64,000 nt of DNA from an uncultured Gammaproteobacteria bacterium (GTDB taxonomy: Bacteria; Patescibacteriota; Microgenomatia; JAMCZE01). The notes below the pieces were generated by a model, which did no database searches, was not told the origin of the DNA, and saw only the letters and a list, made by a program, of their open reading frames with translations. Within the stretch, counting starts at the first letter, position 1; each line of letters begins with the position of its first letter. The DNA is taken from NCBI GenBank assembly GCA_964641255.1, contig CAZXMM010000001.1:246973-310972 (forward strand), read 5' to 3'. This document shows, piece by piece, positions 12,277-29,206 of this stretch. The translations under genes and the position numbers were made by a program.

Positions 12277-15200
12277 ATGGCTAAACAAACTCAAAAATCA
12301 TCTGTTACTCCTCCTGCTTATAATGCGAAGCCGCGTTTGTATTGGGGTCGAACCTACCCGTCACTTCCGGAAATGGATTTTGTCTCCATCCAAAGAGAAT
12401 CCTACGAGCAGTTTCTTAAAGAAGGAATGCGTAGTCTCATTGACGAAGTGTCTCCTATTTCAGATTTTACTGGCAAAAACTGGGAGCTTACTCTAGGAGA
12501 ATATACTTTTGGTAAGCCCAAATATACGGCAGAGTCGTCTGAGCTGAAAGGCGTCACCTATGATATGCCGGTTCGCATCGAGGCTAGGCTTCTTAACAAA
12601 CAAACCGGCGAGGTGACGACTCAAGAAGTTTTCTTTGGCGAGCTTCCAGTAATGACTCCCCAGGGAACCTTTGTTATTAATGGTATTGAGCGGGTGGTCG
12701 TGAACCAACTCGTGCGCTCGGCCGGAGTATATTTTTTGGGCGATGTTGATACGGTATCGGGTCGATTACTCTATTTTGCCGAAATTCGGCCCTCCTTCAA
12801 GGGGAGCTGGTTAGAGTTTAATATTTCCCGTAATAATGTCATTTCGGTTCGGATTGACCGTCGTCGCAAGTTTCCTGTAACTACGTTTTTACGATCAATT
12901 GGTTATGGATCAGATGAGGAAATCAGAAAACTTTTTGCTGAAGTTGATACTGGGGCAGAATCTTTTATCGAGGCTACTCTCAAAAAAGACGTGACTCATG
13001 GGTCGTCTGAGGGAGCAATGGAGATTTACAAGAAAATGCGTCCTGGAGAGCCAGTGGTAGCCGAAACTGCCATGGCTTTTATTAACGATATGTTCTTTAA
13101 CCTCAGACGTTACAACTTGGGTAAAGTGGGTCGCTATAAGCTTAATAAACGTTTAAATTTGGACATCCCCAACACCCCGGAATTTGGGGTACTTCGTCCC
13201 GAAGATATTGTCGAAACGATCAAATATTTAATTCGTTTACAAAAGAATGACCCAAATGTTTACACTGATGATATTGATCATCTAGCAAACCGGCGGTTGC
13301 GTCGAGTTGGAGAATTAGTAGGGACAATTTCGTTCCGGCTGGGGCTGGCTCGATTAGAGAAAGCTGTAAAGGAGCGAATGAGTCTCCTCGATCCCAAAAC
13401 TCGGGTTATGCCCAATCAGGTGATCAATGCCCGTCCCCTTATTTCTGCAGTTAATGAATTTTTCCGGACTTCCCAATTATCTTCTATTCTTGATCAGACT
13501 AACCCTTTGTCAGAAGTTGATACTTTAAGAAAATTGACAGTAATGGGTATGGGAGGGATTTCTAGAGAACGGGCCAGTTTTTCCATTCGCGACATTAACG
13601 CTTCTCAGTACAGTCGTATCTGTCCAGTCCGCTCCCCTGAGGGGCCAAATATTGGACTGGTAACTTATATGAGTCTATACGCAAGAGTAGACGAATTTGG
13701 TTTTTTGCTTGCCCCTTACCGCAAGGTTCGTCACAGTGGTGACCAAGTACAGTTAACGGAAGAAATTGTTTATCTCTCAGCCGATGATGAGCGAGAATTG
13801 AGGATAACTCACGCTGGGGTCACCGTTGATGACCGGGGTTATATTTTGGATAAGCGCGTGCCGGTTCGTTTCCGAGACGACTTTTTAGAAGTAAGTATTG
13901 GGGAGGTCGATCTGATTGACGTATTGCCACGCCAGGTAGTGGGAACCGCCGCTGCACTTATTCCCTTCCTGCAACATGATGATGGTATTCGTGCTTTGAT
14001 GGCTGCCAATATGCAAGCTCAGGCAGTGCCATTAGTCAAAGCGGAAGCTCCGGTGGTAGGAACCGGTGTAGAAAAAGAAGTAGCCGGGGCGATGGGCTGG
14101 GTACTACGGGCTAGGCACGATGGCGAAGTTATTTTTAGTGATGGTTCAAAAGTAACTTTAAAACTAACTAAGACACCTGATAAGGAAGAGCAGAAACAAT
14201 CACAAAACCCCAATATCAAACTAACCGGAGGAACAGAGACCTATTTTACCACCAAGTTTAAAAGAACTAATCCCAATGGTTCGTGTTACAACCAACGGGT
14301 AGTTGTCAATGTAGGGGACAATATCAAAGCTGGAGATATTCTAATTGATGGACCAGCCGCTGTTGGTGGAGAACTCGCCCTTGGTATCAATCTTACCATT
14401 GCTTACGCTCATTTTGAGGGCTTTGGTTACGAAGATGCCATTATTATCTCTGAACGCCTGGTTCGCGAAGATCTCTTAACCAGCATCCACATTGAAGAAT
14501 ACGAGTGTGAAGTGGTTGATACTAAATTGGGGGTCGAGGAACTAACTCGAGATATTCCTAATGTAGGCGAGTCTGATTTGGCTATGCTCGATGAGGAGGG
14601 TATTGTTGTCGTGGGTGCAGAAGTCGGTCCTAACGACATTTTGGTAGGCAAGATTGCTCCCAAAGGCGAAACCGAACTGTCCGCAGAAGAGCGACTACTG
14701 CGAGCTATATTTGGAGAGAAGGCCAGAGAAGTTAGAGATACTTCGCTGCGGATGCCACACGGGGAGCGAGGAACAGTAATTGGGATCAATATTTTATCAA
14801 AGGCTAACGGGGACGAACTTACACCCGGAACAAACCAGTTGATTAAAGTTAAGGTGGCCCAAATGCGCAAAATTTCCGTCGGAGATAAGGTTAAAGGCCG
14901 CCACGGCAACAAAGGAGTCATTAGTCGAATTGTGGCTATGGCAGACATGCCCTATCTAGCCGATGGTCGACCAGTTGACATTATCATTTCTTCTTTGTCA
15001 GTCCTTAGCCGAATGAATTTAGGCCAACTGTTGGAAGCCCATCTTGGTTGGGCAATGACTGAGTTGACTGATAAGGTTACCGTGCCCGTATTTGAAAATA
15101 TAGCCGAAGAGTTAATTGCCGGTGCTCTTAGGAAAGCCAATCTGCCAATTGATGGCAAAGCTATAGTCTATGACGGTCGAACCGGTGAAGCCTTTGCTAA

Positions 15201-15762
15201 CCCAATCGTTGTGGGCACAACCTATATTCTCAAACTACATCACATGGTCGAGGATAAGACCCACGCTCGCTCGACTGGGCCTTATTCTTTGGTAACTCAG
15301 CAGCCCCTGGGTGGTAAAGCTCAAATGGGAGGTCAGCGCGTTGGAGAAATGGAAGTGTGGGCTCTTGAGGCCCACCGTGCTGCCTACACTCTGCAAGAAA
15401 TGTTGACCATTAAATCTGATGATGTAGTCGGAAGAGCTAAGGCTTTTGAAGCCATTGTCAAAGGTACGGATATTCCCCAGTCGACTATTCCAGAATCGTT
15501 TAAAGTTTTAGTTAAAGAGCTGCAGAGCCTCGGACTATCCATTAAACCCGTGGGTGTGATAACATCAGCCCAAGCAGCTGATGATACCGCTTCCCCAACA
15601 CCAACAGCGTCTAGCACTGATGACACAGTCCAAAAAGAAGTCGCCGAGTTGGAAAAGGTCTTGGATGCCGATGTTTTAGAGGCTACTGACAGCGAACTAC
15701 CTGCGGCGGGTATGGAAATCGAAACAACTGACGAGGTTAAAGTAGAGAGCAAAGACGAGTAA
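12277..15762 (+). CDS. rpoB: DNA-directed RNA polymerase beta subunit
   Basis: 1161 aa; RpoB-like sequence throughout, typical length. Confidence 0.97.
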   Translation: MAKQTQKSSVTPPAYNAKPRLYWGRTYPSLPEMDFVSIQRESYEQFLKEGMRSLIDEVSPISDFTGKNWELTLGEYTFGKPKYTAESSELKGVTYDMPVRIEARLLNKQTGEVTTQEVFFGELPVMTPQGTFVINGIERVVVNQLVRSAGVYFLGDVDTVSGRLLYFAEIRPSFKGSWLEFNISRNNVISVRIDRRRKFPVTTFLRSIGYGSDEEIRKLFAEVDTGAESFIEATLKKDVTHGSSEGAMEIYKKMRPGEPVVAETAMAFINDMFFNLRRYNLGKVGRYKLNKRLNLDIPNTPEFGVLRPEDIVETIKYLIRLQKNDPNVYTDDIDHLANRRLRRVGELVGTISFRLGLARLEKAVKERMSLLDPKTRVMPNQVINARPLISAVNEFFRTSQLSSILDQTNPLSEVDTLRKLTVMGMGGISRERASFSIRDINASQYSRICPVRSPEGPNIGLVTYMSLYARVDEFGFLLAPYRKVRHSGDQVQLTEEIVYLSADDERELRITHAGVTVDDRGYILDKRVPVRFRDDFLEVSIGEVDLIDVLPRQVVGTAAALIPFLQHDDGIRALMAANMQAQAVPLVKAEAPVVGTGVEKEVAGAMGWVLRARHDGEVIFSDGSKVTLKLTKTPDKEEQKQSQNPNIKLTGGTETYFTTKFKRTNPNGSCYNQRVVVNVGDNIKAGDILIDGPAAVGGELALGINLTIAYAHFEGFGYEDAIIISERLVREDLLTSIHIEEYECEVVDTKLGVEELTRDIPNVGESDLAMLDEEGIVVVGAEVGPNDILVGKIAPKGETELSAEERLLRAIFGEKAREVRDTSLRMPHGERGTVIGINILSKANGDELTPGTNQLIKVKVAQMRKISVGDKVKGRHGNKGVISRIVAMADMPYLADGRPVDIIISSLSVLSRMNLGQLLEAHLGWAMTELTDKVTVPVFENIAEELIAGALRKANLPIDGKAIVYDGRTGEAFANPIVVGTTYILKLHHMVEDKTHARSTGPYSLVTQQPLGGKAQMGGQRVGEMEVWALEAHRAAYTLQEMLTIKSDDVVGRAKAFEAIVKGTDIPQSTIPESFKVLVKELQSLGLSIKPVGVITSAQAADDTASPTPTASSTDDTVQKEVAELEKVLDADVLEATDSELPAAGMEIETTDEVKVESKDE

Positions 15763-15765
15763 GCT

Positions 15766-18700
15766 ATGCAAAAACCACAAGACAACATCGCTCATATTGT
15801 TGACTTTAAGGGTCTTAAGGTTTCTCTGGCTTCGGCGGCCGAAATGCTGTCTTGGTCTCATGGAGAGGTTACTAAGCCGGAGACAATCAATTACCGGACC
15901 CTAAAACCAGAAAAAGACGGGTTGTTCTCTGAAAACATCTTCGGTCCAACCAAAGACTGGGAGTGTTATTGTGGCAAATATAAACGGATTCGCTACCGTG
16001 GCATTATTTGTGACAAATGTGGGGTTGAGGTGACTCAATCAAAAGTTCGCCGTGAGCGGATGGGACACATTACGTTGGCTGTTCCAGTAGTTCATGTCTG
16101 GTATTTTAAAGGAGCGCCGTCAAAAATTTCTCTTTTATTAGATATTCCTCCCCGGGCCTTAGAAAATGTCATCTATTTTGCTTCTTATCTAGTTCTGGGG
16201 GTCAATGAGAACGAACGAGATACAGTAGTAAGCAATTTAAAGAAGACCATGGAAGAGCGTCAAAAAGCGCTAGAAGCGGCTTTTAACGAGAAAATTACTG
16301 AGGAGAAAAAAGTAGCTCTAGAAAAGGAAACGGAACAAAAAGCCAAGGTCCATCACGACAAAGCCCAGTTTGACCTGATTCTCAGTGAGATTGAGTTGTC
16401 CCGAAAACAAAAAATCGCCAAACTCGAAGAAGAATATGCTCTTGAGAAAAATCGTTTGGGTGAGATTTATCGTGCTCTTTCCGATTTGGTTAAAAGTGTT
16501 AAACCCCTCGCCCAGCTTACTGAAGAAGAATATCTCAAGCTGGATGAGTATGGAGCTGCTCAATTTTTGCAGGTGGGTATGGGAGCCGAAGCAGTCTTAG
16601 AAGCTCTCAAACTTATTAATTTAGACAAGATGGCGGCAGAATTACGTGAAGAACTAGTTGATGCTAGCACCCAACGCCGGGTGAAGGCCATTAAGCAGTT
16701 ACGTATTGTTGATGGGCTAAGAAAAGCCAACATTCGTCCCGAGTGGATGGTTCTTGAGATTCTACCAGTAATTCCCCCAGATCTAAGACCGATGGTGCAG
16801 CTTTCTGGAGGCAGATTCGCCACTTCCGACCTTAACGATTTGTATCGTCGAGTCATTAATCGTAATAATCGTCTGAAGCATCTTATCGACTTGGGAGCTC
16901 CAGAAATTATTCTGCGTAACGAAAAGCGAATGCTCCAGGAGGCAGTCGATTCTCTAATCGATACCGCTCAAAGACCAAGTACTCGCTCTAATGCCGCTGA
17001 ATTAAAAAGTCTATCTGAGATGCTACGTGGTAAGCAAGGACGTTTCCGCCAAAATCTTCTCGGCAAACGGGTTGACTATTCTGGTCGGTCAGTTATTGTC
17101 GCTGGTCCTCACTTAAGACTAAATCAATGCGGTATTCCCAAGGAGATGGCTCTGGAAATGTTCAAACCCTTTGTACTACGGGAGCTAATCGTTCGGGGCT
17201 TCGCTCCCAATGTCAGATCGGCTAAATACATTTTGGATCGGCGCACTCCGGAAGTTTTTGATATTTTGGAAGAAATTACCAAAAATCATCCCGTACTTCT
17301 CAATCGGGCGCCCACTCTTCATAAACTAAGTATTCAAGCCTTTTATCCAATTCTTATTGAAGGGTCCGCTATTCAGGTTCACCCCCTCGTGTGCAGTGGT
17401 TTTAACGCTGATTTTGACGGTGATCAAATGGCGGTTCACGTACCGCTAAGCAGCGCTGCTCGAGCTGAGGCCGCTAATCTTATGATGGCCGAACACAACC
17501 TTCTTAAACCCTCAGATGGGTCGCCAGTTGGGTTGCCTAATAAAGAGATGATTCTAGGACTCTATTTCTTCACCTCTATCGATGAGCGTCTTACACCCCC
17601 ACCCACCATTTTTGCTGACTTTTCTGAGGCCGTTGTAGCTTATCAAGAGAGAAAGATTCAATTGCGACAGGTGATTAAGATCATGATTGGAAAGAATATT
17701 GTCGAGACCACGGTGGGTCGGGTTTTACTCAACGAATTTATTCCCACTCAACTTGGCTTTATCAACGAAACCATTAATTCTAGTAGGATCAAGTCTCTCA
17801 TGTCTCGGGCGATGGATTTGTGCTCAAGAGAAGAAGTAGCCACTCTTCTTGATAATGTTAAAGCGGTGGGTTTCCAAGGAGCCACTATTTCTGGAGTCTC
17901 GGTCGGAATGTTTGATTTAGTCATGATTGGCAATAAGGGGGAGATGATCGGCGAAGCGGAGTTACAGGCTACTGAAATTGAGGAAAATTATCGATCGGGA
18001 CTAATTACTGCTGAGGAAATGCACCGTCTCCAAAATGATGTCTGGATGGACGCTACGGACGAAATTGCTGAACTCACTTGGAATGCTTATACCAAAGATA
18101 ATCCCGTTAAGGTGATTTTGGAAGCAGGAGCCGGACGATCTAGTCGAGATAATCTTAAGCAGATCTCGGGTATGCGGGGGTTGATGGTTGATCCTATGGG
18201 TCGGCTGATTCCGATGCCGACCAAATCCAATTTCCGCCAGGGACTAAATGTTTTTGAATACATCACTGGAACGCGAGGCACACGCAAGTCTCTTGCTGAT
18301 ACGGCTCTACGCACCGCCGATGCTGGCTATCTGACTCGTCGTCTCGTCGATGTGTCTCATGACGCGATTATCCGCATGGTTGATTGTGGTACCAAGCAGG
18401 GTATTGAAATTTCTCGCGAAGAACACCGTCAAGCCACTTTTGCGCAGCGAATTTTGGGTCGTTTTCTGGCTGCAGATGTCAAAGATAACAAGCGGGTTAT
18501 AGCGAGGGCGGGGGACAATATTGATGAATTGGTTTTAGCAGAAATCGAAGCTGCTAAAGTAGCTAGTGTATTTGTTAGGTCACCACTTACCTGCCAAGCC
18601 CATTATGGTCTATGCCAAACTTGCTATGGTCGCGATATTGCTACTCGGGTTTTAGTCGAACTTGGTACACCAGTTGGTGTCATCGCCGCGCAATCAATTG

Positions 18701-19497
18701 GAGAGCAAGGGATTCAGCTGACTTTACGTACTAAACACTCGGGCGGGATTGTCGTTGCTCAGGATGTAACTCAGGGTTTACCTCGGGTTGAGGAGCTCTT
18801 TGAAGCGCGGTCTCCCAAGATTCTTTCGCCGATTGCCGAGATCGCCGGTAAAGTAGAGGTGGCCGAAATGGTCGACGGCTTTAAGGTCAGAGTTCGTACG
18901 ACCACCAAACCAGTTGAAGAACGGGAATATTTAATTCCCTTAACCGCTCAGTTAAAGGTCAGTGATGGTGACTTGGTGGTCGCTGGAACGCAACTGTCGA
19001 CCGGGTCCCTAGATCTTAAAGACGTCCTAGCGGTGCGGGGATTAGCTGGTGCTCAGCGCTATCTCATTGATCAGCTGCAGGAGGTGTATGAATCACAGGG
19101 AATTGGTATCAACGACAAGCACTTTGAAACCATTGTGAGAAAGATGTCTGACAAGGTCAGAATTGAGACCTCGGGTGATACGATTTTCCTTCCCGGCGAA
19201 TTTATTGATCGCACTAGATTTGAGGATGAGAATGCTAGGGTGTTGGCTGCCGGAGGAGAGCCATCCTCTGCCGAACTGACTATTTTGGGCGTAACTAGAG
19301 CCTCACTCTATACTCCTTCGTGGTTATCGGCGGCTTCGTTCGAACGGGTGACTCAAGTCTTAACGGATGCCGCTCTTCGTGGAGCTGAAGATTCATTGCT
19401 AGGGTTAAAAGAAAATGTTATTATTGGGCGCCTTATCCCCACCTCTGCTGAACGAGCCAGGTTGGAGGGTAATGAGCCAGTAGTTCTAGAAGCCTAA
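15766..19497 (+). CDS. rpoC: DNA-directed RNA polymerase beta-prime subunit
   Basis: 1243 aa; NADFDGDQMAVH catalytic motif; zinc-binding Cys near the N-terminus. Confidence 0.97.
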   Translation: MQKPQDNIAHIVDFKGLKVSLASAAEMLSWSHGEVTKPETINYRTLKPEKDGLFSENIFGPTKDWECYCGKYKRIRYRGIICDKCGVEVTQSKVRRERMGHITLAVPVVHVWYFKGAPSKISLLLDIPPRALENVIYFASYLVLGVNENERDTVVSNLKKTMEERQKALEAAFNEKITEEKKVALEKETEQKAKVHHDKAQFDLILSEIELSRKQKIAKLEEEYALEKNRLGEIYRALSDLVKSVKPLAQLTEEEYLKLDEYGAAQFLQVGMGAEAVLEALKLINLDKMAAELREELVDASTQRRVKAIKQLRIVDGLRKANIRPEWMVLEILPVIPPDLRPMVQLSGGRFATSDLNDLYRRVINRNNRLKHLIDLGAPEIILRNEKRMLQEAVDSLIDTAQRPSTRSNAAELKSLSEMLRGKQGRFRQNLLGKRVDYSGRSVIVAGPHLRLNQCGIPKEMALEMFKPFVLRELIVRGFAPNVRSAKYILDRRTPEVFDILEEITKNHPVLLNRAPTLHKLSIQAFYPILIEGSAIQVHPLVCSGFNADFDGDQMAVHVPLSSAARAEAANLMMAEHNLLKPSDGSPVGLPNKEMILGLYFFTSIDERLTPPPTIFADFSEAVVAYQERKIQLRQVIKIMIGKNIVETTVGRVLLNEFIPTQLGFINETINSSRIKSLMSRAMDLCSREEVATLLDNVKAVGFQGATISGVSVGMFDLVMIGNKGEMIGEAELQATEIEENYRSGLITAEEMHRLQNDVWMDATDEIAELTWNAYTKDNPVKVILEAGAGRSSRDNLKQISGMRGLMVDPMGRLIPMPTKSNFRQGLNVFEYITGTRGTRKSLADTALRTADAGYLTRRLVDVSHDAIIRMVDCGTKQGIEISREEHRQATFAQRILGRFLAADVKDNKRVIARAGDNIDELVLAEIEAAKVASVFVRSPLTCQAHYGLCQTCYGRDIATRVLVELGTPVGVIAAQSIGEQGIQLTLRTKHSGGIVVAQDVTQGLPRVEELFEARSPKILSPIAEIAGKVEVAEMVDGFKVRVRTTTKPVEEREYLIPLTAQLKVSDGDLVVAGTQLSTGSLDLKDVLAVRGLAGAQRYLIDQLQEVYESQGIGINDKHFETIVRKMSDKVRIETSGDTIFLPGEFIDRTRFEDENARVLAAGGEPSSAELTILGVTRASLYTPSWLSAASFERVTQVLTDAALRGAEDSLLGLKENVIIGRLIPTSAERARLEGNEPVVLEA

Positions 19498-19500
19498 TTT

Positions 19501-19959
19501 ATGCCCACAATCAACCAACTAGTTAAACGCGGTCGCAAAAGCAAGAGTCGAAAAATTCGTGCTACTGCCCTGCATAAGTTTTTTAATTCTAAAGACCGCT
19601 CAAGCAAAATGATTGCCTCGCCTTTTAAGCGGGGAGTCTGTACGGTGGTCAAAACTATGACTCCTAAGAAACCTAACTCGGCCCTGCGTAAAGTAGCTCG
19701 AGTCCGTCTAAGTAATCGCCAGGAAGTGACAGCTTATATTCAAGGAATTGGCCACGAGCTAGCCGAACACTCGATTGTAATGGTGCGGGGCGGGCGGGTA
19801 CGGGATCTCGTTGGTATTAAATACCATATTATTCGCGGTAAATTTGATACCACAGGAGTTAAGGGTCGCAAGCAGTCCAGAAGTAAGTATGGTACTAAAA
19901 AGGGTGATGGTGGAGGAACTGCAGCGGTAGTTAAGCCGTCTGCTACTCCGGCCGCTTAA
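19501..19959 (+). CDS. rpsL: 30S ribosomal protein S12, with Gly-rich C-terminal extension
   Basis: [13 protein letters not shown]...[11 protein letters not shown]; 152 aa versus about 124 typical. Confidence 0.95.
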
Positions 19960-19968
19960 TCAAAGACT

Positions 19969-20451
19969 ATGCCAAGATCAAAAAAAATCATTAAAAAAAT
20001 CACTCCCTTGGACCCGGTCTATAGTAACCGGTTGGTGACTAAGCTTATCAACAAAACCATGCACGATGGGAAAAAGAGTACCGCTGCCAAGCAAGTCTAT
20101 CGAGCCTTAGAAATTGTTAAGGAAAAAATGCCTGAGAGTGATCCTGTTAAGACCTTTGAGTTAGTTATCAATACCATTGGACCGAAGATGGAAGTGCGCT
20201 CCAGGAGAGTGGGTGGAGCTTCTTACCAAGTTCCCTCTGAAGTTCGGGGTGATAGAAAAGTTCACCTAGCCATTATTTGGCTTTTGGACGCGGCTCGAAA
20301 AAGATCGAACAAGGAATATCATACCTTTGCTGAGAAATTAGCTGCAGAAATGATTGATTCGACAAATGGGTTGGGAAATGCCATCAAGAAACGCGACATG
20401 GTTCATAAAATGGCCGAAGCGAATCGCGCCTTTGCCCACCTTCGGTGGTAG
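19969..20451 (+). CDS. rpsG: 30S ribosomal protein S7
   Basis: MPRSKKIIKK...; S7-like throughout; follows rpsL. Confidence 0.95.
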   Translation: MPRSKKIIKKITPLDPVYSNRLVTKLINKTMHDGKKSTAAKQVYRALEIVKEKMPESDPVKTFELVINTIGPKMEVRSRRVGGASYQVPSEVRGDRKVHLAIIWLLDAARKRSNKEYHTFAEKLAAEMIDSTNGLGNAIKKRDMVHKMAEANRAFAHLRW

Positions 20452-20961
20452 TTAGTCTGTCTTCGCCAGCCACTCCTTAGTAGCCTCAAGACATAATTCT
20501 AAACGGTGGGGAAAATCCTTGTCGGTTAAGTGAATATCAATTGTGTCTTTATGATTAGCCACAAACTTATTGTGGTCGACAATCCAGTCGTCAAGGTATT
20601 GAAACTGATCATATTTTTTGGCTTTCCAGATTTTCACTAACAGTTCTTTAGTAAAATCTAAGCTAATGACAAAGTGCCGGTAGCCAAACTTCTTAAGATT
20701 TTCTTTAGTTTCCGACCAATTACGATCAACACTGATATCTAAGATAAAGCTGCGACTAGAGTTAAGGAGCGCACTAATTCGGGTGTGAGCTCGGCTGTGG
20801 GTTTCCTCCTCGCTGCTAACTAGTAAATCTTCTTTGACCTCGGTACGAATAGCATCTTTATTAAAGATAGGTAGGTTTAGTTGGCAACTCAAGTACGTGG
20901 CAATGGGGGTTTTGGAACTGCCAGGCGGACCAGCAAAAGTGATGCAAAATTTATTTTTCAT
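20452..20961 (-). CDS. Small P-loop NTPase, nucleoside/nucleotide kinase-like (zeta-toxin/AAA_33-like fold), substrate unknown
   Basis: Walker A FAGPPGSSKT; Walker B-like hhhD (FILDIS); 169 aa; encoded antisense, inserted between rpsG and fusA. Confidence 0.5.
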   Translation of the reverse strand: MKNKFCITFAGPPGSSKTPIATYLSCQLNLPIFNKDAIRTEVKEDLLVSSEEETHSRAHTRISALLNSSRSFILDISVDRNWSETKENLKKFGYRHFVISLDFTKELLVKIWKAKKYDQFQYLDDWIVDHNKFVANHKDTIDIHLTDKDFPHRLELCLEATKEWLAKTD

Positions 20962-20976
20962 TTATACTTGTTTTAG

Positions 20977-22536
20977 ATGAAATATCTAACTGCACTTTTC
21001 TTTCCTGCGGCAATTTTACTTTTTTTTACCCTGTCTTTCCACACGGTGACTGACTTTAGTCAAGATTTGGGAAGACATTTACTGATTGGGAAAATAATTA
21101 GAGCTACTGGGGCGATCCCCCAGACTAATTTGCTCTCTTTTACCCACCCCAATTTTCCCTTCACCAATAGTCATTGGTTAGCCGAGGTTGTCTTTTATCT
21201 GCTTAGTAGTCCTCTAAATCTTTTAGGACTCAAGGTAATTATTTTTGTGAGTGCAATGACGCTGACACTTATGACTGCCTGGCAATATTCCAAAAGTCTG
21301 CTAGCAACGGCAGTAGCTTTTTGCCTTCTTGTGCCAGTGCTTTTGGAGCGGACCGATATTCGACCAGAAATATTTTCCTTTCTTTTTGTAGCGGTTTTTA
21401 TGCACCTCTTACTACTTAATAGGACTAAGCTTCTTTTCCTTTTGCCACTTATCGAAATTATTTGGGTCAATACCCACATCTATTTTATTTTAGGGCCAAT
21501 CCTCTGTTTGATCTTTTTTCAAAAGAAATACTGGTATGTTACCTTCCTTACCTGTTTAGCCACAGTGGTTAACCCGAATTTTTTAACCGGAGCGCTGTTC
21601 CCAATTTTCGTGCTGCAAAATTATGGCTACTCGATTGTGGAGAACCAGCAAATTTTCTTTTTACAGCAAGTCACCAGCAACCCAAACATTTGGTACTTTG
21701 AAACAGCCGTGGTTGGCTTAGTGTTAAGCAGCCTTTTTGTGGAATTAAAAAAAATTACGTACCATCACCTCTTACTGGGAGGGTTAATCATTCTCCCTAT
21801 AATCGCCATTCGTAACTTTCCCTTATTTTTTCTCCTGGAACTACCCTTGTTTGCATATATTCTCGCCCACTCTGCTTTACCACTCCGAAGATATGAGAAA
21901 TTTATTTTTTGCTTGGTTCTGGCCCTAACCTTACTTCGGGCTGGCCGGCTTTGGACCAACCAATACTACTTAAGCATCGATTCGGCAAAGCGCTTTGGCT
22001 TCTTCGTCGAAGAGCCCGGAAAAAAAGCTCTAGATTTTATTACTGATCATAAGCTTTTGGGACCGATCCTTAATAATTTTGACATGGGTAGCTATATTGC
22101 CTACCGCTTGTATCCGAGAGAGAAAGTTTTTGTAGATGGCCGACCGGAGGCCTATCCCAAAGAATTTTTCCAAGAAGTCTATATTCCACTCCAGCAAAGC
22201 CCAGAGAATTTTGCTGTGGCTAAGGAACACTTTAAATTTTCTACCATTATTTTTTCCCACCGTGATGGTACCCCTTGGGCGCAACAGTTTCTCTCTTTTA
22301 TTGTTGCCGATCCCGATTTTCGCCTAGTCTATCTCGATAGCTACGCGGTGGTATTTGCTAAAGATACCAATCTCAAAACGGTGGACCCTGATAGTTTATT
22401 AGCAACTAGTGTTAACTATCTAGATAGTTACTATTTGGCTCGTGTGGCTGCAATTTTTGGCTGGGAAGAAATATCGACCAAGCTGGCGGCTCAGTCAATT
22501 AGTAATCGACCAACTAGATCACTGGTTTTTTTCTAG
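20977..22536 (+). CDS. Polytopic membrane protein with C-terminal soluble domain, GT-C-like glycosyltransferase candidate
   Basis: 519 aa; about 12 TM segments in the first ~330 aa, then a hydrophilic domain. Confidence 0.45.
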   Translation: MKYLTALFFPAAILLFFTLSFHTVTDFSQDLGRHLLIGKIIRATGAIPQTNLLSFTHPNFPFTNSHWLAEVVFYLLSSPLNLLGLKVIIFVSAMTLTLMTAWQYSKSLLATAVAFCLLVPVLLERTDIRPEIFSFLFVAVFMHLLLLNRTKLLFLLPLIEIIWVNTHIYFILGPILCLIFFQKKYWYVTFLTCLATVVNPNFLTGALFPIFVLQNYGYSIVENQQIFFLQQVTSNPNIWYFETAVVGLVLSSLFVELKKITYHHLLLGGLIILPIIAIRNFPLFFLLELPLFAYILAHSALPLRRYEKFIFCLVLALTLLRAGRLWTNQYYLSIDSAKRFGFFVEEPGKKALDFITDHKLLGPILNNFDMGSYIAYRLYPREKVFVDGRPEAYPKEFFQEVYIPLQQSPENFAVAKEHFKFSTIIFSHRDGTPWAQQFLSFIVADPDFRLVYLDSYAVVFAKDTNLKTVDPDSLLATSVNYLDSYYLARVAAIFGWEEISTKLAAQSISNRPTRSLVFF

Positions 22537-22559
22537 TCCTTTCTAGTATAATGGGGTGC

Positions 22560-22585
22560 GTGCCGAAAATCGGCACTCGTTTTTT
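22560..22585 (+). terminator. Hairpin GTGCCG-aaaat-CGGCAC plus TCGTTTTTT, 25 nt upstream of fusA; terminator of the upstream gene and/or fusA leader attenuator
   Basis: Inverted repeat plus T-run; preceded by TATAAT at 22547-22552. Confidence 0.5.
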
Positions 22586-22610
22586 GCAATGATTCCAACA
22601 ATAGAATTTT

Positions 22611-24710
22611 ATGTCTGATGCCAAATCCCGTCTTTATCCTCTAGATCGTATCCGTAACATCGGTATTATTGCTCATATTGATGCTGGTAAGACCACTACT
22701 ACTGAGCGGATCCTTTTTTATACCGGAAAAACCTACAAAATTGGCGATATTGATGATGGTAATACCGTGATGGACTGGATGCCTCAAGAGCGGGAGCGGG
22801 GTATAACTATTGTCTCGGCAGCAACTACGACTTTTTGGAAAGACGTTCGCATCAATATTATTGATACTCCCGGGCACGTGGATTTTACTGCCGAAGTGGA
22901 GCGTTCACTTCGGGTTCTTGATGGGGCAGTAATGGTTTTTGACGGCAAGATGGGGGTGGAGGCCCAGTCAGAAACTGTCTGGCGTCAGGCTGACAAATAT
23001 GACGTTCCTCGAATTTGTTCGGTTAACAAAATCAACGGTATTGGCGGGAGCTTTATCAACTCTTTGAAAGATATTCAAGAAAAGCTCAGCCCCAATGCTG
23101 TAGCCATGATTCTCCCTATTGGACTAGAACACGATCATCGTGGTGTGGTGGATTTACTCACACGCAAGGCCTATACCTACAAAGGCCCAGAAACGGTGGA
23201 ACTGATTGAAGAAGAAATTCCAGCAGACATGAAGACTGAGGTAGAACTTTACCGTACCATGTTGGTTGAAAAAGCTGTCGAAGTCGATGACAAGTTATTG
23301 GAAAAATACCTCGAAGGAAAAGAGCCAACAATTGAAGAGCTTAAGGCTGCTATTCGCAAGGGAACCATCGAAAAGAAATTATTTCCGGTATTCGGTGGGG
23401 ACAATCGGATGTGTACAGTGCGCTTACTTCTTGACGCAATCGTTGACTATCTGCCCACTCCGCTTGACCGCCCAGCTATTACTGGAGTTAACCCTAAAAG
23501 TGGGGAGAGTGAGACGAGAGAACAAAAAACCGATGCTCCTTTTTCTGGACTAGCTTTTAAGATTCAGCTCGATCCTCACGTAGGGAAGCTCTATTATGTT
23601 CGTGTTTATTCGGGAACGATTAAAGCTGGCTCTTATGTTTACAATGCTACTAAAGGTCAACAAGAACGTGTGGGCCGGCTACTATTTATGCACGCTAACG
23701 ATCGAGAAGAGATCCAGGAGGCTTACCCTGGAGAAATCGTGGCTGTTGTGGGGCTTAAAGAAACAAGAACCGGAGATACACTTTCAAACCCTGATCATCC
23801 TATAATTCTTGAAGGGATTTCTTTTGCTGAGCCAGTTATCTCGTTTGCTATCGAGCCAAAGACTAAATCAGACCAAGAAAAAATGGGGTATGCCCTGCAG
23901 CGGGTGATGGAGGAGGACCCCACGATTAGACTTCGGTCCAACAAAGAAACCAATCAGACAATCATTTCTGGTATGGGCGAGTTACATCTTGAAGTCTGGG
24001 TCCGCCGCATGAAAGAAGAAATGGGAGTAGATACGAACGTTGGAGCCCCCCAAGTAGCTTATAAAGAAACAATTACTATGCCAGCCGAGGGTGAAGGGAA
24101 ATATATTCGCCAAACCGGAGGCCGTGGTCAGTATGGTCACGCCATGATTAAGATTGAACCTAAACCCAGGGGCGAGGGGTGGGAATTTATTAATGCCATT
24201 AAAGGTGGGACTGTTCCCGCTGAGTACATTCCCTCAGTAGAAAAGGGGACTAAAGAGTGTGCTAACAATGGGATTCTGGCTGGGTTCCCATTAACTGATA
24301 TTAAAGTTACGTTTTATGACGGCTCTTATCATGATGTGGACTCCAGTGATGTAGCGTTCCAAATTGCCGGATCCATGGCGCTTCAGGATGCCACCAAGAA
24401 AGCCGGACTGGTGCTCCTAGAGCCGATCATGAAGGTGGAAGTAACCACCCCGGACGAATTTATGGGAGATGTCATTGGTGATTTATCCAGCAAGCGGGCC
24501 CAGATTCTCGGTTCCACTAAAAGAGGCAGCGCCACCATTATTATGGCTCTGGTTCCCCTCGCTGAACTGTCGGGATACGCTACCAAACTGCGAAGTATTT
24601 CCCAAGGTCGCGCCAGTTATTACATGGAACCCAGTCATTACGAAGAAACGCCCAGAAATGTCCAGGAGGGAATTGTCGCCAAGTATAGTACTGCTAAAGC
24701 GGGGTCGTAG
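22611..24710 (+). CDS. fusA: Elongation factor G
   Basis: [21 protein letters not shown] GTPase motifs; 699 aa. Confidence 0.97.
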
Positions 24711-24732
24711 TTCTATCACCAAATCTCCCCCC

Positions 24733-24762
24733 TTGCTAAAGAGAGTAAGCACAGTTTATAAT
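24733..24762 (+). promoter_or_regulatory. Sigma70-like promoter for tuf: -35 TTGCTA, 18-nt spacer, -10 TATAAT
   Basis: Hexamers read directly; the -35 is the 3' end of the repeated CAAATCTCCCCCCTTGC motif. Confidence 0.55.
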
Positions 24763-24858
24763 CATTACTAGCCTTACATCGAGGCAGGTCTTTTTTGCCA
24801 AAAAGGCAATCTAGGGAGCAAGAGTTAATTACTTAATTTTTATTAATCTAAAAACAAT

Positions 24859-26046
24859 ATGGCAGACGCAGCAAAATTCAATCGTTCCAAGCCTCACGTT
24901 AATATTGGTACCATGGGTCACGTTGATCATGGAAAAACCACCCTGACCTCAGCGATTACCACGGTACTCGCCAAAAAGGGTTTGTCCAAGGCGATGGCCT
25001 ACGATCAAATCGATAATTCCCCCGAAGAAAAGGCTCGTGGTGTCACTATCAACATTACTCACGTCGAATATGAGACGGAGAATCGGCACTATGCTCATAT
25101 CGATATGCCGGGTCACGCCGACTATATCAAAAACATGATTACCGGAGCCGCCCAGGTTGACGGCGCGATTTTAGTAGTTTCTGCTCCTGATGGCCCGATG
25201 GCCCAGACCAGAGAGCATTTACTACTTGCTAAGCAAGTTAACGTCCCGGCTATTGTAGTCTTCTTAAATAAAGTCGATATGGTTAGCGATCCTGAACTGC
25301 TTGATTTAGTCGAAGAAGAGGTTCGTGAGCTACTGGACAAATACGGGTTCCATGGTAAAGACGTTCCGATTATTCGTGGCTCTGCCCTTAAGGCTACCGA
25401 GGGGGATGCAGAGAATGAGCAGAAGATTATGGACCTAATGGCAGCGGTTGATTCCTATATTCCCACTCCAGTGCGTGAATTAGATAAACCCTTCCTGATG
25501 CCAGTTGAAGACGTTTTCTCAATTAAAGGTCGAGGAACAGTGGTAACGGGGAAAATTGATCGTGGCGTTATTAAAGTCAACGAAGAAGTGGAGATTGTGG
25601 GTCTTAAGGCTACCCAAAAAAGTGTGGTGACCGGAGTAGAAATGTTCCGCAAACAACTTGATGAGGGCCAAGCCGGGGATAACGTTGGGCTGCTTCTAAG
25701 AGGGATCGAAAAAGATCAGGTGGAACGTGGACAAGTACTCGCTAAACCTGGATCAATTACTCCCCACACGGAGTTTGAGGCCGAAGTCTACATTCTTTCT
25801 AAGGAGGAAGGCGGACGTCATACACCATTCTTTACAGGCTATCGTCCCCAGTTCTACATTAGAACTACGGATGTTACCGGTGAAGTTACTCTAAATGAGG
25901 GAGTAGAAATGGTCATGCCGGGAGATAATGCCAAGATGAAAGTGAAGCTGATTCAACCGGTAGCTCTTGAGGATGGAATGCGTTTTGCCATCCGTGAAGG
26001 CGGCCACACCGTAGGAGCCGGAGTGGTTAGTAAAATTATTGCTTAA
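24859..26046 (+). CDS. tuf: Elongation factor Tu
   Basis: [22 protein letters not shown] motifs; 395 aa. Confidence 0.97.
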
Positions 26047-26065
26047 GGATTAGAGCCTTATTTAC

Positions 26066-26092
26066 ACGCCCCGAAAACTTCGGGGCGTTTTT
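26066..26092 (+). terminator. Rho-independent terminator after tuf (ACGCCCCG-aaaactt-CGGGGCGT plus TTTTT)
   Basis: 8-bp GC-rich stem plus U-tract, 20 nt after the tuf stop; only ~40 nt before rpsJ, so rpsJ is probably expressed by read-through. Confidence 0.8.
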
Positions 26093-26132
26093 AGACACTA
26101 AAGCTGTTGGGGACTTTAGTTAATTTAAAAAA

Positions 26133-26441
26133 ATGCCCAAAGGCAGAATTCGTGTACGTTTAAAAGCTTATGACGGGAGAGTGCTTGACTCTACCTGTCA
26201 GTCAATTCTTGACGCAGCCATTCGCACTGGTGCGAGTGTTATTGGTCCCGTCCCTCTTCCCACCGATAAAAGTATGATTACTGTCAACCAGTCTCCCTTT
26301 GTTGATAAAAACTCCCAAGAACACTTCTGGATCAAAGTTCACAAAAGACTGATTGATATCATGGAACCAACCGATAAGACTATTGATTCGCTCATGCATC
26401 TGGAACTGCCGGCGGGAGTAGACATTGAAATTAAGATGTAA
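26133..26441 (+). CDS. rpsJ: 30S ribosomal protein S10
   Basis: MPKGRIRVRLKAYD...; 102 aa. Confidence 0.95.
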   Translation: MPKGRIRVRLKAYDGRVLDSTCQSILDAAIRTGASVIGPVPLPTDKSMITVNQSPFVDKNSQEHFWIKVHKRLIDIMEPTDKTIDSLMHLELPAGVDIEIKM

Positions 26442-26583
26442 CCCCGGAGCCCGAGAAGTGTATATGCTTCAACCTACAAATATTGGACAGTGTTTCCAAC
26501 TACTCATTGTCGCCTCTTGTTTTTGATCGCGTGTTGATTACTATGGATTATTGCAAAAGTAATCCGTTACAAACAAATAATTT

Positions 26584-27687
26584 ATGGAGAGCAAGCATCA
26601 CTACGTTTTAATCATGGCGGGGGGATCAGGAACGAGACTGTATCCTAAATCTCGGGAGAATGCTCCAAAACATCTTTCAAAAATTGTTGGAGACCAGACT
26701 CTTCTTCAACAAACCTTTAAAAGAGTCTCCCAAATAGTCTCAGTAGAAAATATCTATATCTCCACCAATTACAAATACGTTAATCAAATTCTCGAGCAAG
26801 TACCGAAGTTAAAAAAACATCAACTTATTTGTGAACCTGAAAAGAGAAATACCGCCCCAGCGTTAGCTCTAGGAACAAGTGTTATTGCAAGAAGTGACCC
26901 TAAGGCTGTTATTGCTGCAATCTCTTGTGACCACTATGTCCTTAAAGAAAAAAATTTTGTCAATGCGTTTAAACTAGCCTTAGCAGTAATTGAGTCCCAC
27001 CCGGATCGCATTCTAGTACTGGGAATTGAACCAAGCTCCCCCCACACTGGGTACGAATATATTGAGAAAGATGGAATCTTTTGGAAAAAAAATCAAGATC
27101 ACGTTTTTAATGTTAAGCGCTTTGTTGAACGCCCTGCGCATAGGGATATTGCTCAAAAATTTATTGATCAAGGTTACTTATGGAATGCGGGTTATTTCAT
27201 TTTTAGTGCCGAGTGTTTTATGAGTAAGATTAAAGAATTTTTACCAGAAGTCCATGCCGGGTTAGAAGCTATTACTGTCGCTGCAGAGAAAAAAAATTAC
27301 GAGGACGTGCTCAAGGAAGAGTTTTTGAAGTTTTCTGATGCCCAGATTGATAAGGCGGTAATGACTAAAATTGATAATTTAGTCGTGTTACCTGCTGATC
27401 TTGGCTGGTGCGATGTAGGCTCTTGGGATGTGGTCCGGAGTTTAATCGAAGAAAAGAAAAAAGATGAAAACAGCAATTATGCCGATGAAGAATTTATCGC
27501 GGTTGACTCCCACAATGTTACTGTTTTAGGCGATAATAAAGGACAGCTAGTAGCAACCATTGGATTGAGTAATATTACTATCATAAATACAGGAGATGCC
27601 ATTGTGGTAATGGAAAACGGCCGAGGACAGGAAGTTAAAAAGATCGTTGATGAAATTAAAAAAAGAAAGCTAGATTTTCTCTTATAA
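26584..27687 (+). CDS. manC: NDP-sugar pyrophosphorylase, mannose-1-phosphate guanylyltransferase-like
   Basis: LIMAGGSGTRLYPKSR nucleotidyltransferase motif; 367 aa with no C-terminal isomerase domain. Confidence 0.75.
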   Translation: MESKHHYVLIMAGGSGTRLYPKSRENAPKHLSKIVGDQTLLQQTFKRVSQIVSVENIYISTNYKYVNQILEQVPKLKKHQLICEPEKRNTAPALALGTSVIARSDPKAVIAAISCDHYVLKEKNFVNAFKLALAVIESHPDRILVLGIEPSSPHTGYEYIEKDGIFWKKNQDHVFNVKRFVERPAHRDIAQKFIDQGYLWNAGYFIFSAECFMSKIKEFLPEVHAGLEAITVAAEKKNYEDVLKEEFLKFSDAQIDKAVMTKIDNLVVLPADLGWCDVGSWDVVRSLIEEKKKDENSNYADEEFIAVDSHNVTVLGDNKGQLVATIGLSNITIINTGDAIVVMENGRGQEVKKIVDEIKKRKLDFLL

Positions 27688-27692
27688 AGATT

Positions 27693-29051
27693 ATGATTGT
27701 TGACCAAAGTATTTTTAAGGCTTACGACATTCGGGGGATCTATCCCGAGCAAATTAACGCTGAAATGGCCTATGCTATTGGACAGGGATACGCTAGTTAT
27801 GTTAAACCCACGAAACCTGTGGCAGTAGGCTACGATGTTCGCCTTCATTCTCACGAGCTTCAAAAAGAGGTAATCAGGGGATTGATTGACGCTGGTGTCA
27901 GCGTCATTGATGTTGGACTTATCTCAACAGAAATGGTTTATTTTGCTGTGGGCCATTTTGGTTTTGGCGGAGGAATACAGGTTACTGCTTCTCACAATCC
28001 CAAAGAATGGCACGGAATGAAATTCGTCAGAGAGAGTGTTATTCCCCTTTCTGGTGATAATGGAATCAAAGAAATTAAAGAGTTTGTTTTAAAAGGAGAG
28101 AGGATAGTTCTAGGAAAGAAAGGGACTGTAGAGCACCAAAATATTTTGGGAGACTTTTGTAATTATTTGCTCACCTGGATTGATCCAAAGAAACTAAAGC
28201 CGCTAACCATTGTCTATAATCCTAACTTTGGCTTTGCAGGTAAAGTTTTGGAACAACTAGTGGGACTCGGTAAACTTCCTGCAGCAATGATTCCCTTAAA
28301 CGCTGAACCTGATGGAAACTTTCCCAAAGGTAGGCCAGACCCTTTTATCCCAGAAAATAGAGTGGAATTTGCAGCATTAGTAAAAGAGAAGAAAGCCGAC
28401 TTGGGAGTAACATGGGATGCTGATGCTGACCGAGTATTTTTTTGCAGCGATGGAGGAACTTTTATTGAACCATATTTTACTAACGCGATCCTAATCAAGG
28501 CGCTTCTTGCGAAGTATCCAGGAGAAAAGGTTCTATACGATCCCCGCTATGCCTGGGCCCTAATAGATGCTACAGCTGCAGCCGGGGGAAGTTCCTACCT
28601 TGATCGGGTAGGCTATGTTTACATCAAAAGACGGATGCGCCAAGACAATATGGTTTTTTCCGGCGAGTCTAGTGGGCATACCTATTTTCGAGATTTTTGG
28701 TTTTCAGACTCGGGGATGATCCCACTGCTTTTGGTTTGGGAATTGCTGTCGGTAGAAAATAAGACACTCTCACAGTTGGTTAAACCTATTATGCAAAAAT
28801 ATTTTATTTCTGGCGAATTAAATTTTAAGACCGATAAAAAGACAGAAATTATGGCCGAACTCGAAAAAGCCTATTCCAGCACAAAAATTGATCATACAGA
28901 TGGAATTACGCTCGAAAGTACCGACTGGCGAGCTAATGTGCGGGCTTCCAATACCGAGCCTCTCCTGCGATTAAATGTAGAGGCAAGATCCCAAGTAAAA
29001 ATGGAGGAGAAACGTGACGAATTAGTTAGTTTTATCAATCAGAAATCCTAA
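27693..29051 (+). CDS. manB: Phosphomannomutase/phosphoglucomutase
   Basis: Active-site TASHNP; GVTWDADADR metal-binding loop; 452 aa. Confidence 0.8.
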   Translation: MIVDQSIFKAYDIRGIYPEQINAEMAYAIGQGYASYVKPTKPVAVGYDVRLHSHELQKEVIRGLIDAGVSVIDVGLISTEMVYFAVGHFGFGGGIQVTASHNPKEWHGMKFVRESVIPLSGDNGIKEIKEFVLKGERIVLGKKGTVEHQNILGDFCNYLLTWIDPKKLKPLTIVYNPNFGFAGKVLEQLVGLGKLPAAMIPLNAEPDGNFPKGRPDPFIPENRVEFAALVKEKKADLGVTWDADADRVFFCSDGGTFIEPYFTNAILIKALLAKYPGEKVLYDPRYAWALIDATAAAGGSSYLDRVGYVYIKRRMRQDNMVFSGESSGHTYFRDFWFSDSGMIPLLLVWELLSVENKTLSQLVKPIMQKYFISGELNFKTDKKTEIMAELEKAYSSTKIDHTDGITLESTDWRANVRASNTEPLLRLNVEARSQVKMEEKRDELVSFINQKS

Positions 29052-29061
29052 ACGCCAGCTC

Positions 29062-29186: not shown

Positions 29187-29206
29187 GTGCTTAACCGAGC
29201 TCAACT

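What the first reader, a model, noticed from the sequence alone, without database searches (positions are those of the whole stretch)
20452..22536. str operon interrupted: divergent P-loop kinase-like gene and 519-aa GT-C-like membrane protein between rpsG and fusA
rpsL-rpsG-fusA-tuf is near-universally contiguous. Here rpsG is followed immediately (zero intergenic nt) by a convergent 169-aa P-loop protein (FAGPPGSSKT) of the zeta-toxin/AAA_33 small-kinase type. A divergent 12-TM protein with a C-terminal soluble domain follows, and only then fusA. A small kinase of unknown substrate paired with a glycosyltransferase-like membrane protein in this position is unexplained. It could be a lipid- or sugar-phosphate kinase and transferase pair.
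Basis: partly seen in the sequence, partly recalled or inferred. Interest (0 to 1): 0.5.

Follow-up and report, generated by a model that had tools for sequence, protein, structure and literature searches.

The report
Glycosyltransferase and kinase inside str operon
In this candidate-phyla-radiation (Patescibacteria) bacterium, the usually unbroken rpsL-rpsG-fusA-tuf gene run really is split by a small P-loop kinase gene and a membrane glycosyltransferase gene. The two belong to separate uncharacterised families that are never neighbours elsewhere, so the pairing looks like a local accident of gene order, not a new two-enzyme system.

The parts
19501..19959 (+). rpsL (uS12), 152 aa, with an unusual G/A/P/T-rich C-terminal tail
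   Evidence: Pfam Ribosom_S12_S23 2.9e-33; relatives are 141-146 aa
19969..20451 (+). rpsG (uS7), the last gene of the rpoB-rpoC-rpsL-rpsG run
   Evidence: Pfam Ribosomal_S7 3.6e-52; stop TAG at 20449-20451
20452..20961 (-). 169-aa divergent AAA_33-type P-loop kinase, convergent with rpsG at 0 nt. Walker A is G11-T18. The candidate catalytic Asp is D36, with R39. The Walker B-like motif is D75-x-S-x-D79-R80.
   Evidence: family invariants K17, D36, E41, E44, D75, S77, D79, R80, H130, R153; pLDDT 96; fold matches to P-loop kinases
20962..20976 (.). 15-nt divergent spacer between the kinase and membrane-protein start codons. Both promoters must therefore lie inside the neighbouring coding sequence.
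   Evidence: A minus-strand promoter-like site TGGAAA-17-TAAAAT at 21041-21013 is a consensus match only.
20977..22536 (+). 519-aa GT-C fold membrane glycosyltransferase of a Patescibacteria-wide family with no Pfam model. It has about 11 TM helices (N-in, C-out). Invariant motifs on the outer face: Q29-D30-x-G-R33-H34 (loop 1); E124-R-x-D-x-R129-P-E131 (loop 2); W163-x-N165-x-H167; N215-Y-G-Y-x-I-x-E222-N223. The C-terminal domain (about 335-480) carries N366-x-F-D369-x-G-x-Y373 and D387-G-R-P-E391. A TPR-like helical hairpin closes the protein.
22547..22586 (+). Conserved spacer element: a -10-like TATAAT (22547-22552), the invariant palindrome GTGCCG-loop-CGGCAC (22560-22576), and a T-run. 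It is a terminator of the membrane gene and/or a promoter-proximal hairpin of fusA.
   Evidence: Terminator scan; conserved in the three clade genomes; unique in the window (expected 0.02) and absent from 155 other loci; the hairpin is predicted to fold in all three
22611..24710 (+). fusA (EF-G)
   Evidence: Pfam GTP_EFTU, EF-G_D2, EFG_III, EFG_IV, EFG_C
24859..26046 (+). tuf (EF-Tu)
   Evidence: 395-aa ORF; 91% identical to the gene called with GTP_EFTU/D2/D3 domains in L002

Best explanation
This is a lineage-specific insertion into the str operon of one Patescibacteria clade (probably Microgenomatia-like). It consists of two functionally independent genes. Stable part: a GT-C fold integral membrane glycosyltransferase. 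By analogy with all characterised GT-C enzymes, it should take a sugar or glycan from a polyprenyl-(pyro)phosphate carrier on the outer face of the membrane and transfer it to an extracytoplasmic acceptor. An invariant Asp (D30) in the first outer loop would be the catalytic or metal-binding residue. An AglB-like C-terminal domain, extended by TPRs in many homologues, would hold the acceptor, most likely a protein. Variable part: a small convergent slot between rpsG and that gene. Here it holds a soluble 169-aa AAA_33-type P-loop kinase. That kinase should transfer the ATP gamma-phosphate to a hydroxyl of an unknown substrate, with K17/T18 (Walker A), D36 as general base and R39. Consequence for transcription (inferred): rpoBC-rpsL-rpsG read-through would be antisense to the kinase and sense for the membrane gene. 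A conserved hairpin plus T-run then ends the transcript, and fusA-tuf would start from its own promoter. Shown: gene content, folds, conservation, lack of co-occurrence. Inferred: donor, acceptor, catalytic residues, kinase substrate, transcript structure.
Against: The kinase and membrane genes are adjacent and divergent in two of the three clade genomes, and one of those adds the cell-wall enzyme VanY. A local functional link in this clade therefore cannot be excluded. Both locus scans used exact motif patterns and held only 7-8 kb flanks, so they sample rather than exhaust the families. Genome-wide co-occurrence was not tested. No sequence-level link to any GT-C family exists, so activity rests on fold and motif position only. 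The two structure-search methods rank kinase relatives differently, so the substrate class is open. No expression data are available.
Confidence: 0.72

Rival explanations
1. One reading: the kinase and the GT-C protein are a functional pair. For example, the kinase makes a phosphorylated lipid or sugar that the membrane enzyme uses, and both are expressed from a shared divergent control region.
For: Divergent arrangement with only 15 nt between the start codons. Adjacency is retained in L002, where VanY, a cell-wall enzyme, sits between them. GDP-mannose pathway genes (ManC, PMM) lie 4 kb downstream in the same super-operon.
Against: 0 of 73 and 0 of 80 independent loci show the pairing. In L157 the membrane gene is in the same place without the kinase. 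The kinase is a soluble 169-aa protein with no membrane segment. From general knowledge, known polyprenol kinases are integral membrane proteins. The kinase's operonic neighbours elsewhere are unrelated housekeeping genes.
Confidence: 0.1
2. The kinase is a divergent housekeeping nucleotide or cofactor kinase (CMP kinase-like, dephospho-CoA kinase-like) that replaces a missing standard enzyme in reduced Patescibacteria genomes.
For: Weak hits to Cytidylate_kin2 in 15 of 34 family members (best E 1.4e-4). TIGR02173 (d)CMP kinase at E 0.003. In other genomes the kinase is usually co-directional with housekeeping genes at short gaps.
Confidence: 0.12
3. The kinase is a zeta-toxin-like toxin or another selfish or defence gene that landed in a variable hot spot next to rpsG.
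For: The slot between rpsG and the membrane gene differs in all three clade genomes. More distant relatives pass the Pfam Zeta_toxin threshold at 28-30 bits against 22.3. PezT appears among the Foldseek hits.
Confidence: 0.04
4. Assembly chimera or contamination produced the interruption.
For: None found. GC is slightly lower (0.41-0.42) than in the flanking rpoC and fusA (0.45-0.49).
Against: The same low GC is seen in other non-ribosomal genes of the window. The arrangement is identical in a second assembly of run SRR14932608. The homologous arrangement occurs in three contigs from other samples. The genes abut at 0 and 15 nt with intact reading frames.
Confidence: 0.01

Closest known systems
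STT3/AglB/PglB oligosaccharyltransferases (GT-C; Pfam STT3 / PF21436)
Protein O-mannosyltransferases and ArnT-type GT-C enzymes (PMT/PMT_2, GT39/GT83)
   Different: Only 305 residues align (membrane core only). There is no PMT/PMT_2 Pfam match. There is no profile similarity to the genuine PMT_2 protein in the same window, at 7897-9357. No MIR domain is present.
AAA_33 / polynucleotide-kinase-like P-loop kinases (T4 Pnk, bacterial Pnkp kinase domain, PSTK, KTI12)
   Different: The window protein is below the AAA_33 cut-off (17.5 against 27 bits). The lid has Lys residues (K-x-x-K-A-K-x-Y) where the second-tier relatives have R-x-K-E-R. There is no fused phosphatase, ligase or tRNA-binding domain. 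Foldseek ranks sugar-phosphate and nucleoside kinases as high or higher.
2rhm, putative kinase Caur_3907 of Chloroflexus aurantiacus (structural-genomics entry, function unknown)
   Different: The sequence match covers only residues 2-74. Its function is unknown, so it gives no annotation.
Zeta/PezT toxins (UDP-GlcNAc kinases)
   Same: P-loop kinase fold. Relatives of the family pass the Zeta_toxin threshold.

Membership tests
GT-C fold glycosyltransferases | Multi-pass membrane domain with the GT-C architecture | tested here: met
GT-C fold glycosyltransferases | Conserved acidic residue in the first extracytoplasmic loop | tested here: met
   D30 is invariant in 37 sequences and lies 10 residues after TM1. 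Its catalytic role is inferred.
GT-C fold glycosyltransferases | Uses a polyprenyl-phosphate-linked sugar donor | not testable with these tools
   Needs biochemistry.
STT3/AglB/PglB oligosaccharyltransferases | Sequence membership (Pfam STT3 / PF21436 core domain) | tested here: not met
   No Pfam hit at E<=10 for 10 family members. No OST hit in PDB profile searches.
STT3/AglB/PglB oligosaccharyltransferases | 13 transmembrane helices | tested here: not met
   About 11 hydrophobic helices by hydropathy and model. The definition is from PMC8342417.
STT3/AglB/PglB oligosaccharyltransferases | [quoted passage not shown] | tested here: not met
   The family has N-N-F-D-x-G-S-Y; only the Asp and Gly are kept. 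The real OST sequences are shown.
STT3/AglB/PglB oligosaccharyltransferases | DGGK (or DNXT) motif shortly after WWDYG | tested here: inconclusive
   V-D387-G-R-P-E (some members V-D-N-R) lies 18 residues after the Asp, against 16 in PglB and STT3B. hhalign aligns this stretch to PglB with P = 0.008 but probability of only 5%.
STT3/AglB/PglB oligosaccharyltransferases | TIXE/SVSE motif in a flexible external loop | tested here: inconclusive
   [S/T/A]-I-x-E222-N is invariant at the Glu. It lies in a lower-confidence outer loop (pLDDT 81-86). Equivalence of this loop to EL5 is not shown.
STT3/AglB/PglB oligosaccharyltransferases | C-terminal globular domain of the AglB/STT3 type | tested here: met
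AAA_33 / PNK-like P-loop kinases | Walker A plus P-loop kinase fold | tested here: met
AAA_33 / PNK-like P-loop kinases | Pfam AAA_33 gathering score | tested here: not met
   17.5 bits against 27 for the window protein. 9 of 34 members hit at E<=0.01. More distant 185-210-aa relatives score 35-45 bits.
AAA_33 / PNK-like P-loop kinases | Arg-rich lid (R-x-x-x-R) | tested here: not met
   The lid region has a conserved K115 and H130 but no conserved Arg. Second-tier relatives have R-x-K-E-R.
Zeta toxin | Pfam Zeta_toxin threshold, cognate antitoxin gene, protein of about 240-270 aa | tested here: not met
Housekeeping NMP kinases (Cmk, Adk) | NCBIfam equivalog cut-off | tested here: not met
   TIGR02173 scores 17.5 against 102.1 bits. 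Adenylate kinase models score 11.6-13.3 against 195-223 bits.

The most novel reading that the evidence does not exclude
The 519-aa protein may represent a Patescibacteria-wide, sequence-orphan branch of the STT3/AglB/PglB oligosaccharyltransferase lineage. It would have a trimmed 11-helix membrane domain and degenerate versions of all five OST motifs. If so, en-bloc glycosylation of surface proteins (N-linked or with altered acceptor specificity) would be a common, unrecognised trait of candidate-phyla-radiation bacteria. In this clade it would also be hard-wired into the translation-gene super-operon, alongside GDP-mannose synthesis genes.
Probability: 0.22. Interest if true: 0.7.

Novelty: new variant of a known kind. 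Interest (0 to 1): 0.36.

Why it matters
The operon interruption itself is a modest curiosity. [quoted passage not shown] Here the ribosomal gene run is broken at three places inside operons, in a genome of about 0.95 Mb. This shows that candidate-phyla-radiation genomes tolerate such breaks. The more useful outcome concerns the two inserted genes. They belong to families widespread in Patescibacteria that no sequence library recognises or names. One is a confidently predicted GT-C glycosyltransferase with an oligosaccharyltransferase-like C-terminal domain. Cell-surface glycans are central to the epibiotic lifestyle of these bacteria, and my searches of the held library found no paper that addresses protein glycosylation in them. 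A defined candidate enzyme with named catalytic residues makes that question testable. The work also removes a tempting but unsupported "kinase plus transferase system" from further consideration.

Tried and rejected
(1) Functional pair: rejected on synteny.
(2) Mobile-element insertion: no flanking direct or inverted repeats beyond chance 12-23-nt matches. No tRNA is nearby; the only tRNA is at 46744. No phage or defence family matches.
(3) Known RNA leader or riboswitch in 11000-30000: no Rfam match at E<=0.1.
(4) Sequence-level classification of the membrane protein failed. Pfam and NCBIfam gave nothing. PDB profile searches found only C-terminal TPRs in the longer homologues.
(5) Relation to the window's other GT-C (PMT_2, 7897-9357): none.
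(6) Building a PglB profile for profile-profile comparison failed. The last homologue search, with a verified 58-aa PglB fragment, returned only four fragments. Only fragment-level hhalign could be run, and it was weak.
(7) The AlphaFold-database fold library was unavailable.
(9) Conserved gene neighbours of either family: none beyond lineage-specific blocks.
(10) The organism name could not be recovered. The lineage is inferred from the names attached to homologues.
Full report
1. THE OBSERVATION

The ORF table and the raw sequence confirm the layout exactly. rpoB (12277-15762), rpoC (15766-19497), rpsL (19501-19959) and rpsG (19969-20451) run head to tail on the plus strand. The rpsG stop codon TAG ends at 20451. 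The next base starts TTA, the reverse complement of the stop codon of a 169-aa minus-strand ORF (20452-20961). That ORF begins MKNKFCITFAGPPGSSKT.

Fifteen bases beyond its start codon, a 519-aa plus-strand ORF begins (20977-22536). After a 74-nt spacer come fusA (22611-24710), tuf (24859-26046) and rpsJ (26133-26441). Pfam confirms S12, S7 and all EF-G domains.

Composition shows no break. GC is 0.41-0.42 in the insert, the same as in other non-ribosomal genes of the window. There are no flanking repeats and no nearby tRNA.

2. THE GENES ARE REAL AND THE ARRANGEMENT IS NOT AN ARTEFACT

The small protein has 108 homologues of 160-180 aa at E<=1e-3, down to E 1e-60 for the closest. The large protein has at least 629 homologues. 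Where named, all are from Patescibacteria/CPR bins: Microgenomates, Roizman-, Woese-, Shapiro-, Falkow-, Uhr-, Gracili-, Saccharibacteria and others. Both give high-confidence AlphaFold models, with pLDDT 96 and 93.

A second assembly of run SRR14932608 reproduces the arrangement. More importantly, contigs from other samples show homologous arrangements.
- A JGI contig (L002), plus a Logan contig from a further run (L003) with the same genes, carries rpsL-rpsG-[kinase, convergent, overlapping rpsG by 16 nt]-[VanY]-[membrane protein]-fusA-tuf-rpsJ.
- A Logan contig (L157) carries rpoB-rpoC-rpsL-rpsG-[199-aa minus-strand ORF]-[membrane protein]-fusA.

Both relatives are about 81% identical to the window in RpoC. 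They are 51-57% identical in the membrane protein, and L002 is 60% identical in the kinase.

3. ARE THE TWO GENES A PAIR? NO

The 199-aa ORF that occupies the kinase position in L157 has no similarity to the kinase and no Pfam, PADLOC or PHROGs match. Within the one clade that has the insertion, the membrane gene is therefore the constant part. The convergent slot next to rpsG is variable.

Outside the clade the two genes are never linked.
- A scan of one genome per GTDB species returned 73 kinase loci with up to 8 kb on each side. None contains the membrane gene. Only one (L007) has the str operon within reach, about 4 kb from the kinase, and there the operon is intact.
- A metagenome scan returned 80 membrane-protein loci with 7 kb flanks. 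None contains the kinase or rpsL/rpsG.

Clustering of neighbours shows no conserved partner for either gene. The kinase usually sits co-directionally, often at gaps under 20 nt, among unrelated housekeeping genes. A Pfam census of 82 such neighbours found 57 families, none in more than four loci (AHSA1, RRM_1 and Thioredoxin in 4 each; NUDIX in 3; Dus, an RsmD-like family and DNA_alkylation in 2 each). The membrane gene has lineage-specific neighbours: ComM-like ATPase plus P-type ATPase in one lineage, and Fic-like, TerC-like and S41 peptidase genes in another. In a few loci it lies in arrays of other GT-C paralogs.

4. THE MEMBRANE PROTEIN

No Pfam or NCBIfam model matches it, even at E<=10. 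PDB profile searches find only TPR repeats at the C-terminus of the longer homologues.

Hydropathy and the model's helices give about 11 membrane helices. Short K/R-rich loops lie at 147-151, 183-184, 258-259 and 304-308. Under the positive-inside rule, the N-terminus is inside and the C-terminal domain outside.

Every invariant polar motif of the family (blocks) then falls on the outer face:
- Q29-D30-L-G-R33-H34, just after TM1
- E124-R-T-D-I-R129-P-E131
- W163-V-N165-x-H167
- N199-P
- N215-Y-G-Y-x-I-x-E222-N223, in a lower-confidence (flexible) loop
- R279
- in the soluble domain, N366-x-F-D369-x-G-x-Y373 and V-D387-G-R-P-E391

This is the expected picture for a GT-C enzyme whose active site faces outward. 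That reading is inference from the established GT-C mechanism.

5. HOW OLIGOSACCHARYLTRANSFERASE-LIKE IS IT?

PMC8342417 lists the defining OST motifs. They are DXD in external loops 1 and 2, TIXE/SVSE in loop 5, and WWDYG, DGGK (or DNXT...) and DK/MI in the C-terminal domain, with 13 TM helices.

Real sequences retrieved from the PDB read [23 protein letters not shown] (PglB) and [24 protein letters not shown] (STT3B). The family consensus is NNFDIGSYLxYRLYPKEKVFVDG(N)RPE. The same Asp-x-Gly is present, followed by the same hydrophobic-V-D-G/N 18 residues later (16 in the OSTs).

A regular expression covering both sequence types hits all 77 family members among 1,761 ORFs of the fetched loci, and none of the other ORFs. 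I wrote it after seeing both sequences, so it is partly fitted.

hhalign aligns exactly this stretch with PglB (27 columns, 30% identity) but at P = 0.008 and probability of only 5%. It finds nothing with the STT3B fragment.

The family therefore fails strict OST membership: no Pfam match, about 11 rather than 13 helices, and no tryptophans in the WWDYG position. It does resemble OSTs in architecture, C-terminal fold and motif order. I treat "divergent OST-like GT-C" as a lead (probability about 0.2-0.25) and "GT-C glycosyltransferase" as established.

The C-terminal TPRs in many homologues favour a protein acceptor. From general knowledge, protein-glycosylating TPR-bearing GT-C enzymes have the same feature. 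The window also encodes GDP-mannose pathway enzymes 4 kb downstream (ManC, PMM) and a separate PMT_2 enzyme. The PMT_2 enzyme shows no profile similarity to this family.

6. THE KINASE

Family invariants are K17 (Walker A), D36, E41, E44, D75, S77, D79, R80, H130 and R153. R39 and K115 are nearly invariant.

The window protein scores only 17.5 bits on AAA_33 against a cut-off of 27. NCBIfam nucleotide-kinase models score far below their cut-offs.

An exhaustive profile search of 1.84 billion representatives finds a small family: 84 clusters at E<=1e-30 and 160 at E<=1e-10. A second tier consists of 185-210-aa proteins. They keep the family's F-S-G-x-P-G-S-G-K-T, D-x-x-R and I-L-D-x-S-x-D-R motifs. 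They pass the Pfam thresholds of AAA_33 (35-45 bits), Zeta_toxin (28-30) and KTI12 (27-30).

Structure search does not settle the substrate.
- Foldseek ranks the PFK-2 kinase domain, 2rhm, a deoxyadenosine kinase, PSTK, gluconate kinase and PezT within one order of magnitude of each other.

The D36-x-x-R39 motif about 19 residues after the Walker lysine matches the spacing I recall for the catalytic Asp/Arg of T4 polynucleotide kinase (memory, not tested). The lid lacks the Arg pair of its AAA_33 relatives.

My best guess is a hydroxyl kinase that uses D36 as general base. A polynucleotide or tRNA 5'-OH substrate is slightly favoured over a small-molecule substrate, at low confidence. A zeta-type toxin is unlikely: there is no antitoxin, the protein is too short, and there is no defence match. 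A housekeeping NMP kinase is also unlikely, given the thresholds and the patchy, small family.

7. TRANSCRIPTION (INFERRED)

With 0 nt between rpsG and the kinase, and 15 nt between the divergent starts, there is no room for intergenic signals. Read-through from rpsG would be antisense to the kinase and sense for the membrane gene.

The membrane-gene/fusA spacer carries a conserved element in all three clade genomes. It consists of a -10-like (T/C)ATAAT, then 7-8 nt later the invariant palindrome GTGCCG-loop-CGGCAC, then TC(G/A)TTTTT. The palindrome occurs once in the window (0.02 expected) and in no other fetched locus. It is predicted to fold in each case and was picked up by the terminator scan. 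It probably ends the upstream transcript. The conserved -10-like box suggests that fusA-tuf restarts there. No known RNA family matches.

8. CONTEXT AND VERDICT

The same window shows two more intra-operon insertions in the ribosomal super-cluster. ManC plus PMM lie between rpsJ and rplC; L002 has NUDIX plus ManC at that position. MscL (minus strand) plus a Fic protein lie between rplO and secY.

[quoted passage not shown] The tolerance seen here is notable, but it fits a general looseness of gene order in this genome rather than a special system at rpsG/fusA.

The literature searches found nothing on GT-C or OST-like enzymes in Patescibacteria. A search on protein glycosylation in these bacteria returned four papers, none with either term in its title or abstract.

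Overall:
- The "pair" interpretation is not supported.
- The residual value lies in two unannotated, structurally classifiable families. The more interesting one is the GT-C enzyme with an AglB-like C-terminal domain.

Noticed in passing
window 22547-22586; L157 8612-8655; L002 about 5320-5365: A conserved element lies in the membrane-gene/fusA spacer of all three clade genomes. It is a -10-like (T/C)ATAAT, then the invariant palindrome GTGCCG-loop-CGGCAC with a variable loop, then a T-run. It is unique in the window and absent from 155 other loci. It could be a terminator, or a promoter-proximal hairpin (attenuator?) for fusA.
   Followed up: partly
window 26584-29051: ManC-like nucleotidyltransferase (26584-27687) and phosphomannomutase (27693-29051) are inserted between rpsJ and rplC (29207-29848). 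This is a second intra-operon interruption of the ribosomal super-cluster. The relative L002 has NUDIX plus ManC at the same place.
   Followed up: partly
window 37653-39141: MscL (minus strand, 37653-38099) and a Fic-domain protein (38122-39141) are inserted between rplO (37216-37656) and secY (39160-40446). This is a third interruption of the super-cluster.
   Followed up: partly
window 19501-19959: rpsL encodes 152 aa with a G/A/P/T-rich C-terminal tail (...[20 protein letters not shown]). The orthologues in the two related genomes are 141 and 146 aa.
   Followed up: no
L002 8501-8516: In the relative, the kinase and rpsG genes overlap convergently by 16 nt. The window has 0 nt between them. 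No intergenic terminator is possible in either genome.
   Followed up: no
window 1266-9357: A cell-envelope gene cluster lies upstream of the rpoBC block. It holds two FemAB-like genes (1266-3168), a 780-aa protein with a Baseplate_J-like stretch (3229-5571), a sortase (5558-6343), YceG/MltG (6898-7872) and a PMT_2-type GT-C glycosyltransferase (7897-9357). The PMT_2 enzyme is unrelated at profile level to the 519-aa protein.
   Followed up: partly
L100, L154, L155 (around position 7000): In some metagenome loci, the membrane-protein family member sits in arrays of two to four other large GT-C/TPR paralogs. L154 also holds a second, 29%-identical copy of the family.
   Followed up: no
L002 about 5370-5420 (minus strand): The spacer between the membrane gene and fusA in the relative contains a short tandem repeat (CCTAACCT, about 3 copies). 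The window lacks it.
   Followed up: no
proteins P0340-P0382: A second tier of 185-210-aa relatives of the kinase carries an N-terminal extension of about 25 aa and an R-x-K-E-R lid. These pass the AAA_33, Zeta_toxin and KTI12 thresholds. Their genomic context was not examined.
   Followed up: partly
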